A stretch of DNA of 64,000 nt from contig CP068257.2 in NCBI GenBank assembly GCA_009914755.4, positions 27,584,001 through 27,648,000 of the forward strand. The letters are read 5' to 3'. The translations under genes and the position numbers were made by a program. Below, in pieces: positions 4,508-36,341 of the stretch (position 1 is the stretch's first letter; every line of letters starts with the position of its first letter). The notes beneath the pieces are model-generated. The model was given only the letters and a program-made list of their open reading frames with translations. It ran no database searches and was not told the DNA's origin. Source of the stretch: the human T2T-CHM13v2.0 reference genome, Homo sapiens.

Positions 4508-5739
<1,232 letters not shown>

Positions 5740-14684: not shown

Positions 14685-15489
14685 TTAGTTCACTAGGGCT
14701 GCCATAAAAAAGTGCCAGAAGGACGCTAGGTGACTCAGAAAACAAAAATTTGTTTTCTCACAGTTCTGGAAGCTGTGAATCTAAGATCAATGTGTCAGCA
14801 GGTTGACTTCTGAGGCCCCTCTCCCTGGCTTGTAGATCTGTGACTTCAGATTGTCTTCCTTCTGTGTGTCTGTGTCCTAATCTTATAAGGACACCAGTCA
14901 GATTACATTAGGACCCATGCCAATAACCTCATTTTACCTTAATTACCTCTTTAAAGCCTTTATGTCTGTTAAAGCAAACTATAGCCTGAGAAGGACTCCC
15001 TACTTCTATATTTGAGTCCTTGCGGATGAACCGTAACCTAACTTAATAGGCAGATAAAATTGAAAACCTAACTTAGTAGTATGCACCTGTAACAATAGCT
15101 AAATCCTAGCCAATCCCAGCAGCCATATTTCAACCATTCATACACTGCTTAGTGCTCAAACTGTGTTCAAATAAGGCAAACGCCAACCTCTAACCAATCC
15201 AGCCGTTCTGTACCTCACTTCCAATTTCTGAACGTCATTTCTCTTTTTTTTTTTGGTCTATAAATCTTCCACCACATGGCTGCGCTGGAGTCTTTGTGAA
15301 TCTGCTGTGATTCTGGGGGCTGTCTGATTTGTGAAACGTTCATTGCTCAATTAAACTCCTTTAAATTTAAACCGACTGAAGTTTTTCTTTTATCATGTCC
15401 CAAAACAGGAACATTCTGAGGTACTAGAGGTTTGGAGTTCAACATATACATTTGGCGGAGGTTGCAGGAAGACAATTCAGCCCATAGCA
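14685..15489 (-). mobile_element. Older MaLR-type LTR (MLT1-like), split by a nested ~430-bp insertion
   Basis: Left part ..gggctgccataaaaaagtgccagaaggacgctaggtgactcagaaaacaaaaatttgttttctcacagttctggaagctgtgaatctaagatcaatgtgtcagcag...cttataaggacaccagtcagattacattaggacccatgccaataacctcattttaccttaattacctctttaaagcc; right part resumes at 15396 ..aacattctgaggtactagaggtttggagttcaacatatacatttggcggaggttgcaggaagacaattcagcccatagca. Confidence 0.5.
14967..15395 (+). mobile_element. Putative ERV1-type solo LTR (TG...CA ends, about 430 bp) nested in the MaLR LTR; carries CCAAT boxes, TATAAA and AATTAAA signals
   Basis: Begins tgttaaagc, ends cttttatca, flanked by tgtc on both sides (14963-14966 and 15396-15399), a 4-bp TSD typical of class I ERVs. 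Contains ccaatcc x2, ggtctataaatcttcc (TATA, ~15253) and cattgctcaattaaactcc (poly(A) signal, ~15345). The interrupted host LTR resumes immediately after. Confidence 0.35.
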
Positions 15490-15999
15490 TGTACCTACCT
15501 AAGGTCTTAACTGGTAAACAAACAAACAAAAAACCAACCTAGTTATAGTTTTAAATTTGTTTCTATTTTATTTCCCATGAGGTAATCTAAAAGAACCTGG
15601 GGAATCCAGGTGCTTTTCAAAGCAGTACTTGTATGGTGTTTCATCATTACCTCTCAGCGGGAGGGAAATGAAACTCAGACGGGCCCATTTGGTTTCTATG
15701 ATACCAGCTTTCCTCACCTTTCTTGGGGAGAGTGATTTTGAAACTATGGGCTACAAAAGACTTTTGGATTATGTGTGAGCTATGCTCTCTCTCTGGGACT
15801 CCTACTATGCTTTGTGATTGTGAAAATAAGTGATTCAAAATCTAAGCTGTTGGAACTCTAAATTATTTTGAGCCATAAGGAAATGTGAATTATGGGGCCT
15901 GAGTCACAAGACAGGCAGCTGTAAACTAGGCAGCTGTGAACTTTTTGTAATATTTTTGATTGTCTGAATTGTCTTTTCCCTTACCTACATTATTTTGTA

Positions 16000-16760
16000 A
16001 AATGTTGTGAATGGTTGTAGGACGTGCGACAGGTGTAGCTCACCTGCTTGGTCGCCCCAAAGCTCAAAGGAGGAGCATGCAGACAGGCAGGTGCAGAGGC
16101 CAGTACAAGCACTTTTGGGCTCCTGTCCCACGGCAGAGTCTAGGGGTGGGTCTCTGTGTCACTCGAAGCCCATGTAGGCATGTATTACAAAGCTCTTTCA
16201 GATTTGTTGTCTGCAGACGGCTTGTGTGTTAATCAGCTTAACGGACCCTCTGCCTTATTGTGAGGGCAGGGGGCCAGCGTGACAACTTTCTTTATCCCAA
16301 GCTCTTGTCCAGTGTCCTGAAAGAATCAGATCACACATGGGCTTGAAGGATGAGTGCAAGGTTTCATTGAGTGGTGGAGGTGGCTCTCAGTGAGATGGAT
16401 GGGGAGGCAGAAGTGGGGATGGAGTGGGAAGGTGGTCTTTCCCTGGAGTCGGGCATCCAGCGGCCCAACTCTTCTCCAGCCACCCCTGGCCAAGCTCCCC
16501 TATGAGTCCAGACATCCTTCCTTTTCTCTCTTTCTCTGCTGCATTGTTCCACTGTCACTGGTCTGCTGGTTCACTGGTCCACTGGTCTGCTGGTCTTGAT
16601 GTCCAGCTTCTTGTGTATGTGCCCGCTAAGGTCTTGGGTTTGTATGGGGGCAGGATGGGGGGTGCATGGCAGGCCAAAAGGCAAATTTTGGCCATGAAAA
16701 CAGAAATGCCTGTCCTCCTTTAGGGCTGCCGGTCTTCAGGCTTGAGGGTGGGCCGTTTGT
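16000..16760. other. GC/CpG-rich block of unknown identity (possible CpG-island-like element or ERV LTR fragment)
   Basis: Many CpGs (gacgtgcgacagg, ggtcgcccc, gcagacggc, aacggaccc, ccagcgtgac, gtcgggcatccagcggccc, gcccgctaagg, tgccggtc, gggccgtttgttggggaaccgccccc) in an otherwise AT-rich, CpG-depleted window; no match to Alu, L1, MaLR, Tigger or GAPDH. Confidence 0.4.
16556..16595. repeat. Short tandem repeat (about 2.5 copies of a cactggtctgctggtt-like 13-16-mer)
   Basis: cactggtctgctggttcactggtccactggtctgctggtc. Confidence 0.6.
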
Positions 16761-19700
16761 TGGGGAACCGCCCCCTTCTACCCAGTATTTCCCTGTTTCC
16801 TGTCCATATCAGTGAAGGATGCCAGAGGAGACCCCTTCCCTCTTACTATTGACTTTCATTATAGATTAACCTCTTTCTTCTCACACAAAAACTTTATGGC
16901 CATCTCAATGCCTCAAGATGGAATGTTAAGCACACTCTTTTAAAATCAAAAGGAAATGAAAAGGAGCGATAAAGAAAAGAAAACAAGCTGCATGGAAAAG
17001 AAAAGAAAAGAAACTGATTAATTTGTTGTAACTCATAAACTGGCCCTGTATTGAAAATGTTGTAATCTTGTTAAATTTCTTTGCTTTTTCCTATATAAAA
17101 GAGAATTTAGCTTTTAACTTCAGAGCACTACCCCCATTTCTCTGGGACAGAGCATCCAGAAATGGCCATTCCCAGCTTTTTGCTTGAATAAACTCTCTAA
17201 AATTGGAATCTGACCCTTTAGATTATTTCAGGTTGACATGATGAGGAGTTGGCTATAAAGTCACTGCTCTGGCAAAGACTGAATTTCTCTCCTAGTATCA
17301 ATCCAACACCACTGTTGCCCTGATACATACTGCATTACTGTGGAAGGTTTAAAATCAATCTACTTAGTATTTTCCCTTTTGTAGAAGTGGATTTTAATTA
17401 TTTCAAGGATCAGGTTTATGGTGTGGGGTGGGGGCTCCAGGGATGTGGGGAGGGTAGCATCACAAGGAATTTTCCTCCAAAATGAGTGTAAGCTCAAGTC
17501 CTCTCTTGTGTCTGCTTTGCCTTACTTTGCAGGGAAAGAACCCAAGTTGCATGCAACTTCCCATCTAACTTCTCATTCTCTCTTAATTTTCAAACTTGTT
17601 TTCATCCCTATTAATAGCCAGGTCATAGAATCATTTTCAGAAACATTTCAGGTGCTTCAGGATTTTTGAAACCCTTTAGTTCGCATGGTTTGAGTGTGTC
17701 ACAGGTTAGTAAACCCTCAAAGCTATGCTGTCATGGTTATTGTGTGGTTTATGCCGAGAGAAACTGGTCATAGTCTGCCCCAAGTAGCAATTAATGGGGA
17801 CCCTGAGGGGCAGTCGGGAGAAGTGACTAAATCAATCCAGCAAGCTCTAGAGAAGCATTTCCTCTTGAGAAGTTCACTATTTTGTGAAAATCAAACGCAA
17901 CCAAATGCCAGGGGAAAGAACATCTCCCACTGGAGCTTGACAATATTTGTAGAATTAAGTGAAGTTGTGTTTCTGGTGGTTGAAAGTGTCTGTTTGTGAT
18001 CTCATGTATTCTATTTTGCTGAATAGGTACTTAGGATCTGATTTGGGAGGAAATGAAAGCATGACCACTGGCAAGAGTCAGAAAGAGCTACAGGCATTGG
18101 CATTTTCTGTCTATTTCTAAGATCTTTTTGTCAATCCGGTGTTTGGAAACAACTTTCAGTCTACCTGCAGGCATTTTAAATGAGTCCTTTACCTTGTTTC
18201 TCATAGGAAAACTTCATTTAGCTGCATCCACTCCAGGCAAGTTCTTTGTTTTCACTACTTGTCAGTGTTTTTTCTTAATCACTTCCCTCATCTTCCTTCC
18301 TCTCTGAGCCCCTCCTTTTCAACCTCCTCCAGTTCCCTACCCCCAGCCCCTAATGGAGTGTGATGTATTATACTTACGCTTTATGAAATTCTCATTAGGG
18401 AGGATCCTGTCCATTGACAATAATGGTTGACTTGCAGAATTCTCAAATATGAAGTTTCAATGGTTTGTACATCACATGTTGATTTTCTTTCCTTCCACAT
18501 GTGGATAATATCCACACAACAGTATCTCACACCCCTATTCTTTGTGAAAACATTATGTGGAAAAGTCGATGTCTTGGGTGGATCAATTGTCAATAACAAC
18601 AGTGTTTCGGATACATAAGCCCTTCCTGTTGTAGTCACACCTTCTCTCTGACTTTAGGGGCTCCTACAAGGTCCTTGTATTTATTTCAGAATAGGCTAGT
18701 GTAGAGACTTAAGGAAGAGCTCTCGGCATCAGTCAGGAATTCATCGGTCAGGCCCTGAGCCCTGCCTCTGCCATGCTGTCATTGACTTTGGCCTTAGGTG
18801 GGTCATTTTGCATCTCTGGGCCCAGTTTCCCCACCCTTAAAAGAAGAAGACTGGCCTGTCAGGAGTTCTAGCATCCTTGTGATAGGTCATCCTTGTTGGA
18901 CAATCCTTGTTTTGTTCCCATTAAGCTTTACTTGCCAGTGAGTTCCTTTTCGTCCTTTTGTAGATTCCGTAAGACCCAGAGGGTGAGTCTAGCCAAAGAG
19001 GGAATCAAGCTGGGCTAGCCAAAGAATGTATCCTCTTTGCTCCTAATCTTCTGAAGAATAAGTCACTCCAGAGGCAGGAGGAACCATCTCTGATTGAGCC
19101 AGTGAGCATGTGGCTGGCTGTCCTTATGAGCCCCAGGCCCCACCATCAGAGCTAAGCTTGCCAAGGAATGCGGTGTTCCTTCCATAGCTCTGCTTCAGAT
19201 CTGCTTCCCAGCCCTGTCTGTCCTTCTTGGATTAGGCAGCAGCATTCTAGGAACAAATCCCCTTTGCTCAGCCATGCATCACTGCCTTCCAACTCATTTT
19301 CTGAATCTCACAGTTCTTGTCCCCTCCCTGCTGGTCCTGGCAAGACTGAATTTGTCAGGCCTTGTTGAGTTCCTGTAGCCTGGTGCATGTGGTTAGGACC
19401 TAGGTTGCTTTTGGCTGCTCTAGATATTTTTAAGTACTTTTAATTGATTGGAAAAACATGCTAACTTTGAGTTTTAAAGTATTTGTAATTATACCCCCCC
19501 AAGGCCACTGACTTAGCTGTGGGGTTGTCAAAGAGCCATTAATAAGCAAATTAAAAGGAAGAGGTGGAGCCGTAAAAGCAGTTGCAGAACTAGAAGCCAA
19601 AAGCAGCACTTTCTGTTTAGTGACTGTAATAGCCCTGACTGTGTGTGGACTCCTGAGATGGAGGACAAGTGAACTTACTATGTGTTTGAAAAAATGGTTG

Positions 19701-20239
19701 CAGTGGGGCAAATATAAACCTATGCTGTGCCACACTCCTTCAAGGCTGATCTATTTCATGGCCACTTCCAGAATTGTGCAACAGGTGACCTCCAGGATAA
19801 CTATGGCTTATCTTACAGCAACGTAGTTCATCTAGGATAGAAAATTGTACCTTTATCCCTGGTACCTTCTGACTACAGATGACATAGTGCTTGAACCAAT
19901 CCTATCTAATCTCTTTCCACTCATTTTTAGAATAAAAGCCAAGCCTCTCATGGATTGGGATGCCCTTAGAGAAAGAATGCTTATTTCAATGCAGTTGTGT
20001 TACTGCTTCGTGGTGTCATATATATTAGTCAGTTTCACTGCAATAATATATAGTCTCCAAATCTCAGGGGCTCACGCCAACAAATTTTCATTTCCCACTT
20101 GCATTACATAGTGATGGTCATGCACTGATTGCTACAGTTCTGCTCCCAGTGTCTTCTCTTTCCTGGAATCAGAAACATAGCCATGTATAGTTGGGACTTG
20201 CTATTTTTGTTTCGTAACTGCATTTTTGTACCCAGTAGC

Positions 20240-20420
20240 TGTCTGCACTCCTTCCCCTTCCCTGTCCTCTTCCCAGCCTCTAGTAACCATCATTTTACTC
20301 TTTACCTCCATGAGTTCAATTGTTTTGATTCCTAAGTCTCACATATGAGTGAGAACCTGCGAAATTTATCTTTCTGTGCCTGGCTTTGGGACTGCTGTTT
20401 TTGTGGCAGAAAGAAAAACA
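20240..20420 (+). mobile_element. L1 fragment (ORF2 3' region, older L1P/L1M type)
   Basis: cctctagtaaccatcattttactctttacctccatgagttcaattgttttgattcctaagtctcacatatgagtgagaacctgcgaaatttatctttctgtgcctggctt resembles the L1 segment ccctctggtaaccac...agttcaact.tttagattccacatataagtgagatcatg..tgtctttctgtgcctggctt. Confidence 0.5.
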
Positions 20421-21536
20421 GAGTATTGGCTGGAAAATGTCATGCTTCAAAGTGTTTGCTTGAACTGGCACACTGTCACCTCTGCTTACATTTCACTGGC
20501 CCAGACACCTCATGTTGCCAAGCCTGAAAACATGGCAGAGAAATATTCTCCACGTATGGAGAGGCACCACAAGTCATTCGGAAATGGGTTGGATGTATAA
20601 TCACTTACAGGGAAGAAAGCCAATATGGGGAATAACAGTCCCATCGATCATCAGGTTCACATGCTAGACAGGTAACTTCATGAGAAAGGCCATGCTCTGG
20701 ACAGAAGCCTCTGATCCATAAATCTGTCTTTCCTATCCTTGAGTGCTGTTATGTAAGGAAGACAGGGGAGAATAGCTCTTTGATTTTTATATTTGGGAAG
20801 GCCTGTGCCAAGATTCCTTTTATGAGATGGGATCTGTTTTTGTTCTAACACCCTTCAGGTTCACTTATTCCTGCCTTAGACGGTGTCTCCTCTTCTGCAA
20901 ATTGCTCGATTTGTTTGGCTTCATCTTTTGATTGCAGTTGATGGCTTTGGCGTTAATAAATGTTTTGCTCTTCTTTCAGCTGACTCTCAAATGTGCTCTT
21001 GCAGATGCAAAATCACTGTGGTTTGGCATCAGACCAGAAGATGTAGGAATCAGTATCAGCAGAGATGTGGGCTTCTTGGTCCGAGGCAGATTCAAGAAGT
21101 AGAAGATTACAGGAGAAGAGCTAGACATAGGAATAAATGCATCTATTTCCTTGTTTTAAGAGAGACTATAAAAGTTAACATTTTTTTCTTCACTTTCCAC
21201 AGGTGAATCTTTTTTGGACCATTTTGCTGTTTTAGCAGTGTCTTTCTCATGGAACATATAGCTTAGATGGTGAAATTATTTTTCTTAACTTTCAGACTTT
21301 CTGGAAAGTCAAGGAGGATGGGTGTTTCTGATCTGTGACAACAATGAATTTTTTATAATAACTTGAGATAGGAAAAAAATCTGATTGCAGTATATAATAA
21401 TCAGAAAATTTCCTCTTTGCAGAAATCAAAATTACTTCCAGCATATATAAAACAATCTTTGCTAATAAAGTAATACAAACCCTCCAGTTATTATTTATTT
21501 TTATTGGCTTTTTTGTAAAAGTATAGATATTTATAA

Positions 21537-22100
<564 letters not shown>

Positions 22101-34059: not shown

Positions 34060-36341
34060 TATATTAGTCCATTTTCACACTGCTGATAAAGACATACCTG
34101 AGACTGGGAAGAAAAAGAGATTTAATTGGACTTACAGTTCCACATGGCTGGGGAGGCCTCAGAATCATGGAGGAGGTGAGAGGCACTCTTACATGGCAGA
34201 GGCAAGAGAAAAATGAGGAAGATGCAGAAGGGAAAACCTCTGATATAACCATCAGATCTCGTGAGACTTATTCAATACCATGAGAACAGTATGGGGGAAC
34301 TGCCCCCATTATTCAAATTATCTCCCACTGGGTCCCTCCCACAACATGTGAGAATTACGGGAGTCCAATTCAAGATGAGACTTGGGTGGGGATACAGAAT
34401 CAACCCATATCATTCCACCTCTGGCCTCTTCAAATCTCATGTCCTCACATTTCAAAACCAATCATGCCTTCCCAACAGTCCCTCAAAGTCTTAAGTCATT
34501 TCAGCATTAACCTGAAAGTCCACAGTCCAACTCATCTGATACAAGGGAAGTCTCTTCCACCTATGAGCCTGTAAAATCAAAAGCAAGCTAGTTACTTCCT
34601 AGATACAATGGGATACAGATATTGGGTAAATATAGTCATTCCAAATGGGAGAAATTGGCCAGAACAAAGGGGTTACAGGGCCCATGCAAGTCTGAAATCC
34701 AGCAGGGCAGTAAAATTTTAAAGCTCCAAAATGATCTCCTTTGATTCCATATCTCACATCCAGGTCATGCTGATGCAAGAGGTAGGTTCCCATAGGCTTG
34801 GGCAGCTCTGCCCTTGTGGCTTTGCAGGGTACAACCCCCCTTCTGGCTGCTTTCACGGGCTAGCATTGAGCGTCTATGGCTTTTCCAGGTGCACAGGGCA
34901 GGCTGTCATTGAATCTCCCATTTTGGGGTTTGGAGGACAGTAACCCTCTTCTCACAGCTCCACTAGGTGGTGCACCAGTAGGCACTCTGTGTGGGGGCTC
35001 TGACTCCACATTTCCCTTCTGTACTGCCCTGGCAGAGATTCTCCATGTGGGCCCCACCTGTGTAGCAAACTTTTGCCTGGGCATCCAGGCGTTTCCATGC
35101 ATCTTCTGAAATCTAGGAGGAGGTTCCCAAACCTCAATTCTTGACTTCTGTGCAACTGCAGGCTCAACACCATGTGGAAACTGCCAAGGTTTGGGGCTTG
35201 CACCCTCTGAAAACATGGGCCAAGCTGTATGTTGGACCCTTTTAGCAATGGCTGGAGTGGCTGTGACACAGGGCACCAAGTCCCTATGCTGCACACAGCA
35301 TGAGGACCCTGGGCCCAGCCCATGAAACCATTTTTTCCTCCTATGCTTCTGGGTCTGCGATGGGAGGGGCTGCCATGAAAACCTATGACATGCCCTGGAG
35401 ACATGTTCCCCATTGTCTTGGGGATTCACATTCAACTTTTTGTTACTTATGCAAATTTATGCAGCCAGGTTGAATTTCTCCTCAAAAAAATGGGTTTTCC
35501 TTTTCTACTGCATCATCAGGCTGCAAATTTTCTGAGCTTTTATGCTCTGTTTCCCTTTCAAAATGGAATGCTTTTAACAGCACCCAAGTCACCTCTTGAA
35601 TGCTTCTCTGCTTAGAAATTTCTTTCACCAGATACTCTAAATCATCTCTCTCAAGTTCAAAGTTCCACAAATCTTTAGGGCAGGGGCAAAATGCCACTAG
35701 TTTCTTTGGTAAAACATAACAAGAGTCAACTTTGCTCCCGTTCCTAACAAGTTCTTCAGCTCCATCTGAGGTCACCTCAGCCTGCTTCTTATTGTTCATA
35801 TCACTATCAGCATTTTTGTCAAAGCCATTCAACAAATCTCTAGGAGGTTTCAAACTTTCCTACATTTTCCTGTCTTCTTCTGAGCCCTCTAAACTGTTCC
35901 AACCTCTGCCTGTTACCCAGTTCCAAAGTTGCTTCCACATTTTCAGGTATCTTTTCAGCAACACCCCACTCCTGGTACCAACTTACTGTATTAGTCCATT
36001 TTCACACTGCTGATAAAGGCATACCTGAGACTAGGAAGAAAAAAAGGTTTAATTGGACTTACAGTTCCACATGGCTGGGGAAGCCTCAAAATCATGGTGG
36101 GAGGCAAAAGCCACTTCTTACCTGGTGGTGGCAAGAGAAAAATGAGGAAGATGCAAAAGTGGAGACTCCTGATAAAACCATCAGCTCTCATGAGACTTAT
36201 TCACTACCACAAGAACAGTATGGGGGAACCACACCCATGATTCAAATTATGTCCCACCAGGTCCCTCCCACAACCTGTGAGAATTATGGGAGTACAATTC
36301 AAGATGAGATTTGGGTGGGGACACAGAGCCAAACCATATCA
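34060..36341 (-). mobile_element. Full-length THE1-class ERVL-MaLR retrotransposon (5'LTR-internal-3'LTR, about 2.28 kb), reverse orientation, with 5-bp TSD CCAAG
   Basis: LTR copies at 34060-34412 and 35991-36341 (both tattagtccattttcacactgctgataaag...ccatcag.tctc.tgagacttattca.tacca..agaacagtatgggggaac...caattcaagatgagatttgggtgggga.acaga..caa.ccatatca, roughly 88-90% identical to each other). They bracket about 1.58 kb of THE1-internal sequence. ccaag lies immediately before (34055-34059) and after (36342-36346), and MIR sequence continues on both flanks. Confidence 0.85.

What the first reader, a model, noticed from the sequence alone, without database searches (positions are those of the whole stretch)
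16000..16760. Isolated GC- and CpG-rich 0.8-kb block of unidentified origin
Against an AT-rich, CpG-poor background this segment carries at least 15 CpGs and long G/C runs (ggtggaggtggctctcagtgagatggatggggaggcagaagtggggatggagtgggaagg; gggccgtttgttggggaaccgccccc) plus a short tandem repeat at 16556-16595. It does not match the Alu, L1, MaLR, Tigger or GAPDH sequences I can recognise. It could be an unmethylated CpG-island-like regulatory element, a fragment of a GC-rich ERV LTR, or a diverged exon/UTR. It is the only part of the window whose composition suggests a non-repeat function.
Basis: seen in the sequence. Interest (0 to 1): 0.5.

Follow-up and report, generated by a model that had tools for sequence, protein, structure and literature searches.

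The report
Old decayed retroviral LTR copy
The GC-rich 0.8-kb block is not a CpG island but a worn-out copy of a dispersed repeat, most likely a lone retroviral LTR left in primate DNA tens of millions of years ago, so it is ordinary.

Summary
The block exists, but it is not what the title says. It is the GC-richest 760-bp stretch of the window (54% against 39%). It holds 13 CpGs, not 15 or more. CpG observed/expected is 0.24 (best 200-bp window 0.40; window background 0.18), so it fails the CpG-island test.

Likelihood change-points put its edges at about 16013-16020 and 16840. Within their support intervals lies one TG...CA unit, 16012-16811, flanked by a 5-bp direct repeat GTGAA (chance 2.3%).

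A metagenome scan found two unlinked relatives. L002 aligns over 16044-16812 (K2P 0.26); the match stops at the predicted CA end, and the flanks are unrelated. L001 aligns over 16296-16406. CpGs are almost never shared between copies (1 shared, 19 private, partners mostly TG/CA), which indicates independent methylation decay.

On the minus strand L002 has one TATAAA upstream of one AATAAA (1.7% of shuffles). The window copy carries one-base-mutated versions of both.

There is no coding signal, Rfam match, tRNA or terminal inverted repeat.

Verdict: a decayed interspersed-repeat copy, most likely a minus-strand solo ERV LTR. I could not name the family because no repeat library was available. 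Interest is low.

The parts
16012..16811 (-). 800-bp copy of a dispersed repeat, read as a solo LTR. On the minus strand it runs 5'-TGATATGGACAGG...CCTACAACCA-3'.
   Evidence: The GC change-points coincide with it. It is the only TG...CA unit with a target-site duplication (TSD) of 5 bp or more inside the support intervals. L002 aligns to 16044-16812 at 73.7% identity counting gap columns, K2P 0.26.
16007..16011 (.). Left copy of the 5-bp direct repeat GTGAA (putative target-site duplication).
   Evidence: Such a TG...CA plus 5-bp repeat occurs in 2.3% of equally sized interval pairs elsewhere in the window.
16812..16816 (.). Right copy of the 5-bp direct repeat GTGAA.
   Evidence: Homology with L002 stops at 16812 and the flanks beyond are unrelated.
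16639..16644 (-). Relic TATA box: TACAAA in the window copy, TATAAA at the aligned position in L002.
16363..16368 (-). Relic polyadenylation signal: AATGAA in the window copy, AATAAA in both L001 and L002.
16366..16405 (.). 40-nt core ATTGAGTGGTGGAGGTGGCTCTCAGTGAGATGGATGGGGA, identical in the window, L001 and L002.
   Evidence: Part of this identity is forced, because 22 of the 40 bases were the search seed.
16548..16595 (.). Short tandem repeat (period 8 or 16, CACTGGTCTGCTGGT) inside the element. The same region is repetitive but different in L002.

Best explanation
The block at 16012-16811 is an old, methylation-decayed copy of an interspersed repeat. It is most likely a solo long terminal repeat of an endogenous retrovirus lying on the minus strand.

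Inferred history:
- A provirus integrated here and duplicated 5 bp of target (GTGAA).
- Recombination between its two LTRs removed the internal genes and left one LTR.
- Germline methylation then turned most CpGs into TpG or CpA, and point mutations disabled the TATA box and the poly(A) signal.

Its GC richness is inherited from the element and says nothing about present function. I infer that it is now a neutral relic.

Shown here: the discrete boundaries, the direct repeat, the TG/CA termini, unlinked relatives whose homology ends at the predicted terminus, and private CpG decay.
Inferred: the LTR class, the orientation, the recombination step and the lack of present function.
For: 1. Boundaries. 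The ML GC change-points (16013-16020 and about 16840) bracket a single TG...CA unit with a 5-bp direct repeat. This has a 2.3% chance by the window's own statistics.
2. Dispersed relatives. Metagenome contig L002 aligns to 16044-16812 (749 aligned bases, p-distance 0.215, K2P 0.26) and stops at ...CCATATCAG, the predicted CA end. Its flanks match neither the window's flanks nor anything collinear in the 64 kb. L001 carries a third copy of 16296-16406 at 82-85% identity next to an L1 scrap.
3. CpG decay. One CpG is shared and 11 plus 8 are private. The partner dinucleotide is mostly TG or CA. CpA observed/expected is 1.61 in the block.
4. LTR signals. L002 has exactly one TATAAA and one AATAAA, both on the minus strand and with the TATA upstream; this occurs in 1.7% of shuffles. 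L001 shares the AATAAA. The window copy has one-base variants at the aligned sites. The same strand begins with TG (TGATATGG in both copies).
5. Nothing else fits. No protein relative, no Pfam hit to the right, no Rfam family, no tRNA and no terminal inverted repeats.
Against: - No repeat library (Dfam, RepeatMasker) could be run, so the family is unnamed and the LTR class is inferred from anatomy alone.
- Only two relatives were found, both through one exact seed and both from unknown host species. L001 is an assembly chimera.
- The implied layout is unusual: U3 about 170 nt, about 275 nt between the TATA box and the AATAAA, and about 350 nt after the poly(A) signal.
- The window copy itself has no intact TATAAA or AATAAA.
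- The leftmost 32 nt (16012-16043) do not align convincingly with L002, and no matching direct repeat was found around the L002 copy.
- The termini share no inverted repeat beyond TG/CA.
- A 5-bp duplication fits class III (ERVL, MaLR) elements better than the gamma-like class that the poly(A) region resembles. That resemblance rests on my own knowledge, not on a test.
Confidence: 0.62

Rival explanations
1. The block is a repeat of another architecture. One version is a 5' LTR of about 580 bp (ending ...GATTAACA near 16230 on the minus strand) plus about 220 bp of proviral leader, truncated at 16012. Another is a fragment of some other retroelement. In either case the GTGAA repeat is a coincidence.
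For: The stretch after the poly(A) signal is too long for a normal U5. ...TTAACA is a typical LTR end (my own knowledge), and it is shared by the window and L002 and, as GGGTTAACA, by L001. L002 continues leftwards with sequence that the window lacks. L001 lacks 41 nt in this region.
Against: No primer-binding site starting TGG follows the alternative end. The left edge of homology, the GC change-point and the TG with its 5-bp repeat all fall within about 30 bp of each other. No gag, pol or env remnants were found nearby (only the 5 kb to the right was scanned).
Confidence: 0.2
2. The block is an L1-mediated retrocopy of a non-coding RNA or UTR. The insert would span about 16013-17053, flanked by the long direct repeat AAAATGTTGT(G)AAT, with the A-rich stretch at 16940-17013 as a degraded poly(A) tail.
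For: A 10-mer, extendable to 13 of 14 bases, repeats at 15999 and 17054. The left copy abuts the block and starts with AAAA after GT, resembling the L1 endonuclease site TT|AAAA (my own knowledge). An A-rich tract lies at 16943-17013.
Against: Forty non-A bases separate the A-rich tract from the right repeat, so the tail does not abut the duplication. No AATAAA or ATTAAA lies upstream of the A-rich tract. Homology with L002 ends at 16812, not at the A-rich tract. The 10-mer is AT-rich, and a second unrelated 10-mer match occurs in the same search.
Confidence: 0.06
3. The block is a CpG-island-like or otherwise functional regulatory element, either unique or an exapted LTR acting as a promoter or enhancer.
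For: It has the highest GC of the window. A 40-nt core is identical in three copies that are otherwise 15-26% diverged. A GC-box-like GGGGGCGG lies at 16768-16775 on the minus strand (read).
Against: CpG observed/expected is 0.24, with a maximum of 0.40. CpG loss is private to each copy. The GC box is not conserved in L002. The identity of the core is largely ascertainment: I estimate about 2.5% chance for the extra 18 bases in L002 given the seed, before allowing for rate heterogeneity.
Confidence: 0.05
4. The block is a diverged exon or UTR of a gene or lncRNA.
For: Both copies end in a pyrimidine tract plus CAG that looks like a splice acceptor (16785-16812).
Against: Homology stops at the AG instead of continuing into an exon. 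No protein relative was found in six frames. The longest ORF is 99 aa. Rfam gives no family.
Confidence: 0.03

Closest known systems
Solo LTRs of ancient primate or eutherian endogenous retroviruses (RepeatMasker classes LTR/ERV1 and LTR/ERVL)
   Same: A discrete unit of several hundred bp with TG...CA termini and a short target-site duplication. It has dispersed, diverged copies with unrelated flanks. A TATA box lies upstream of a poly(A) signal on one strand. It is GC-richer than its surroundings and its CpGs have decayed.
   Different: The family was not named, because no consensus library was available. The spacing of signals is atypical, with a long stretch after the poly(A) signal. No copy attached to gag, pol or env was seen. 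The termini share no inverted repeat beyond TG/CA.
CpG island (Gardiner-Garden and Frommer criteria)
   Same: Longer than 200 bp and above 50% GC.
   Different: CpG observed/expected is 0.24 against the required 0.6. The CpGs show methylation-type decay.
MaLR LTRs (THE1, MST, MLT1)
   Same: A 5-bp duplication and a 5' end TGATATGG like THE1 (consensus recalled from memory). A MaLR LTR lies next door at 14690-15489.
   Different: The block is about twice as long as MaLR LTRs. I saw no similarity to the recalled THE1B consensus beyond the first 8 bases, but no formal alignment against a library was run.

Membership tests
CpG island | Length of at least 200 bp and GC of at least 50% | tested here: met
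   800 bp; 53.9-54.8% GC.
CpG island | CpG observed/expected of at least 0.6 | tested here: not met
   0.24 over the block. The best 200-bp window gives 0.40.
Solo ERV LTR | TG...CA termini | tested here: met
   TG at 16012-16013 and CA at 16810-16811. L002 shares the ...CCATATCA end.
Solo ERV LTR | Target-site duplication of 4-6 bp directly flanking the unit | tested here: met
   GTGAA at 16007-16011 and 16812-16816. Chance is 2.3% given the boundary intervals. No such repeat was found around L002.
Solo ERV LTR | Dispersed copies whose homology ends at the unit's termini | tested here: met
   The right end is exact (16812). The left end agrees to within about 30 bp. The flanks are unrelated. 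Only two relatives were found.
Solo ERV LTR | Promoter (TATA) upstream of a poly(A) signal on the same strand | tested here: inconclusive
   Present in L002 (1.7% of shuffles), and the AATAAA is also present in L001. Both are mutated by one base in the window copy.
Solo ERV LTR | Match to a curated LTR consensus, or the same sequence flanking gag-pol-env somewhere | not testable with these tools
   No Dfam, Repbase or host genome was available. Six viral-contig scans found nothing.
Processed retrocopy (L1-mediated) | Poly(A) tail abutting a 7-20-bp target duplication | tested here: not met
   The A-rich tract ends at 17013 and the candidate repeat starts at 17054.
DNA transposon | Terminal inverted repeats | tested here: not met
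   No terminal inverted repeat in 15990-16840.
Structured RNA gene or tRNA-derived SINE | Match to an Rfam model or a tRNA-like fold | tested here: not met

The most novel reading that the evidence does not exclude
The 40-nt core at 16366-16405 is identical in three copies that are otherwise 15-26% diverged, and it contains the palindrome TCTCAGTGAGA just upstream of the poly(A) signal. It could be a constrained protein-binding or RNA element of this repeat family, in which case copies such as this one might have been co-opted as regulatory modules.
Probability: 0.04. Interest if true: 0.3.

Novelty: already known. Interest (0 to 1): 0.07.

Why it matters
It matters little. The finding shows that GC richness in AT-rich mammalian DNA does not by itself indicate function. 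Here it marks an old retroelement whose CpGs have been lost to methylation. The practical value is in triage: the window's one supposedly non-repeat candidate can be set aside unless chromatin or methylation data say otherwise.

Tried and rejected
- A second copy inside the window: none found.
- An LTR pair formed by 15850-16400 and 16950-17300: only a weak, low-complexity alignment.
- Exact look-up of the 99-aa ORF: not on record.
- Six-frame translations of the block and of L002 against 5.8 billion proteins: no hits. Short spurious ORFs may simply not be in that collection, so this rules out coding homology only.
- Pfam on six frames of 16800-21800: nothing apart from one sub-threshold chance hit, FpoO. 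The first attempt with raw references failed on stop codons.
- Rfam at gathering and E-value thresholds, and ARAGORN: nothing.
- The first metagenome seed and the first genome seed: nothing.
- The second genome seed: only a chance 22-mer in a Pseudomonadales MAG, L003.
- Six viral-contig scans: nothing.
- Literature search for core sequence strings and for the contig accessions: nothing.
- L002 as an orthologue rather than a paralogue: rejected, because its flanks match nothing collinear in the window.
- L002's 161-aa ORF as a gene: rejected, because it has no relatives and runs from the flank into the repeat.
- NUMT, rRNA fragment, L1 5' UTR and SVA: considered and dropped on composition, Rfam and the absence of neighbouring ORF1/ORF2.

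Full report
**Context.** The window is primate genomic DNA. Alu copies lie at about 13.5, 21.8, 23.4 and 24.5 kb. Overall GC is 38.9% and CpG observed/expected is 0.18. Just left of the finding, a minus-strand MaLR LTR (14690-15489) is itself split by a small LTR-like insertion (read; the MaLR consensus is from my own knowledge). The neighbourhood is therefore a nest of retroelement relics.

**Observation.**
- The block is real. 16000-16760 is 53.9% GC, and a 760-bp window starting at 16021 is the GC-richest in the 64 kb at 54.8%.
- The two quoted strings are present.
- The tandem repeat at 16548-16595 is present.
- The stated span holds 13 CpGs, not 15 or more.
- CpG observed/expected is 0.24, little above the window's 0.18. 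No 200-bp window exceeds 0.40. The CpG-island criterion of 0.6 is clearly failed.
- Two other stretches are nearly as GC-rich: 4921, which overlies a GAPDH pseudogene, and 34641. Three other 760-bp windows hold as many or more CpGs.

**Boundaries.** A two-change-point likelihood scan puts the GC step at 16013-16020 on the left and about 16840 on the right. The 2-lnL support intervals are 16001-16038 and 16775-16857. Inside those intervals there is exactly one TG...CA unit with a flanking direct repeat of 5 bp or more: 16012-16811, flanked by GTGAA on both sides. The same test at 1673 other positions in the window succeeds 2.3% of the time.

**Relatives.**
- The window holds no second copy.
- Protein-based routes were empty.
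- One of two metagenome seeds hit two contigs.
- L002 (1342 bp, coverage 1.55) aligns with 16044-16812 over 749 bases, with p-distance 0.215 and K2P 0.26.
- The L002 alignment ends at ...CCATATCAG, the CA terminus predicted from the window alone.
- The sequences on either side of the aligned part are no more alike than shuffled controls. L002's flanks match nothing collinear anywhere in the window. L002 is therefore a paralogous copy in a different context, not an orthologue.
- L001 is an assembly chimera. Its first 250 bases or so carry an L1 ORF2 scrap and a third copy of 16296-16406 (82-85% identity). The rest is bacterial, with a 330-aa secreted-protein ORF.
- The block is therefore a copy of an interspersed repeat.

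**CpG history.** Across the window/L002 alignment only 1 CpG is shared. Eleven are private to the window copy and 8 to L002. Opposite a private CpG the other copy mostly has TG or CA. CpA observed/expected is 1.61 in the block. This is the pattern expected when two copies of a once CpG-richer element are methylated and decay independently, and it is the opposite of an unmethylated island. A K2P of 0.26 between copies implies roughly 13% divergence per lineage, which points to an age of several tens of millions of years. The age is an inference, and the neutral rate behind it is from general knowledge.

**Class and orientation.**
- L002's copy has exactly one TATAAA and one AATAAA. Both are on the minus strand, with the TATA 279 nt upstream of the poly(A) signal. 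Only 1.7% of shuffles show such an arrangement.
- L001 shares the AATAAA.
- The window copy has TACAAA (16644-16639) and AATGAA (16368-16363) at the aligned sites.
- On that strand the element begins TGATATGG in both copies and ends ...ACAACCA in the window.
- The sequence after the poly(A) signal (CTCAATAAAAC-TTG-A-TCATCCTTC...) resembles retroviral R/U5 regions. This is my own knowledge and was not tested.
- There are no terminal inverted repeats, no coding remnants in the 5 kb to the right, no Rfam family and no tRNA.
- Taken together, the termini, the 5-bp duplication, the dispersed copies and the promoter-then-poly(A) order fit a solo LTR on the minus strand.

**Weak points.**
- No repeat library could be run, so the family is unnamed.
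- Only two relatives were found, both through one seed and both from unknown hosts.
- The layout is odd for an LTR, with about 170 nt before the TATA box and about 350 nt after the poly(A) signal. An LTR-plus-leader fragment or another retroelement architecture therefore remains possible.
- The first 32 nt on the left do not align convincingly with L002.
- A competing long direct repeat, AAAATGTTGT(G)AAT at 15999 and 17054, could suggest an L1-mediated retrocopy. However, the A-rich tract does not abut it, and the homology with L002 ends 130 bp before that tract.

**Verdict.** This is a decayed interspersed-repeat copy, most likely a solo ERV LTR. I put about 0.62 on the LTR reading and about 0.9 on it being a repeat relic rather than a CpG island. 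It is an ordinary feature of primate DNA. The most unusual observation is the 40-nt core at 16366-16405, which is identical in all three copies. Much of that identity follows from the way the relatives were found.

Noticed in passing
window 14963-15399: A 429-bp LTR-like unit on the plus strand (14967-15395, TGTT...ATCA, with TATAAA-like and ATTAAA motifs) is nested inside a minus-strand MaLR LTR (14690-15489). It is flanked by TGTC on both sides (14963-14966 and 15396-15399). The MaLR sequence resumes across it, which suggests a nested solo-LTR insertion with a 4-bp duplication.
   Followed up: partly
window 15819-17238: Without the GC block, the AT-rich flanks could form one LTR of about 615 bp on the plus strand. 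It would run TGTG...ACA with TGAT on both sides (15815-15818 and 17239-17242), and it has TATATAAAAG at 17092 and AATAAA at 17187. The GC block would then be a nested insertion into an older or unrelated LTR. The 4-bp repeat alone is not significant.
   Followed up: partly
window 15999-16012 and 17054-17066: The direct repeat AAAATGTTGTGAAT / AAAATGTTGTAAT brackets the block plus 240 bp of AT-rich sequence that includes an A-rich tract (16943-17013). It is either a chance match in low-complexity DNA or a relic of another insertion event.
   Followed up: partly
window ~4700-5500 (+): ORF fragments translate to GAPDH-like peptides (for example ...[27 protein letters not shown]...). This is a processed GAPDH pseudogene, and it overlaps the second GC-richest 760-bp stretch of the window.
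   Followed up: no
window 34860-35435 (-): A 191-aa ORF lies in the third GC-richest stretch (52.6% GC, only 4 CpGs). I did not identify it; it is probably repeat-derived.
   Followed up: no
L001 1-1690: Metagenome contig OHAM01018863.1 is a chimera. About 250 bp is mammal-like DNA (an L1 ORF2 scrap at 34-89 and a repeat copy at 100-250). This is joined to bacterial DNA encoding a 330-aa secreted protein. It appears to be host contamination mis-joined during assembly.
   Followed up: partly
L003 3167-3188: A Pseudomonadales MAG shares an exact 22-mer with the block's core but nothing else. It is a chance match, not contamination.
   Followed up: yes
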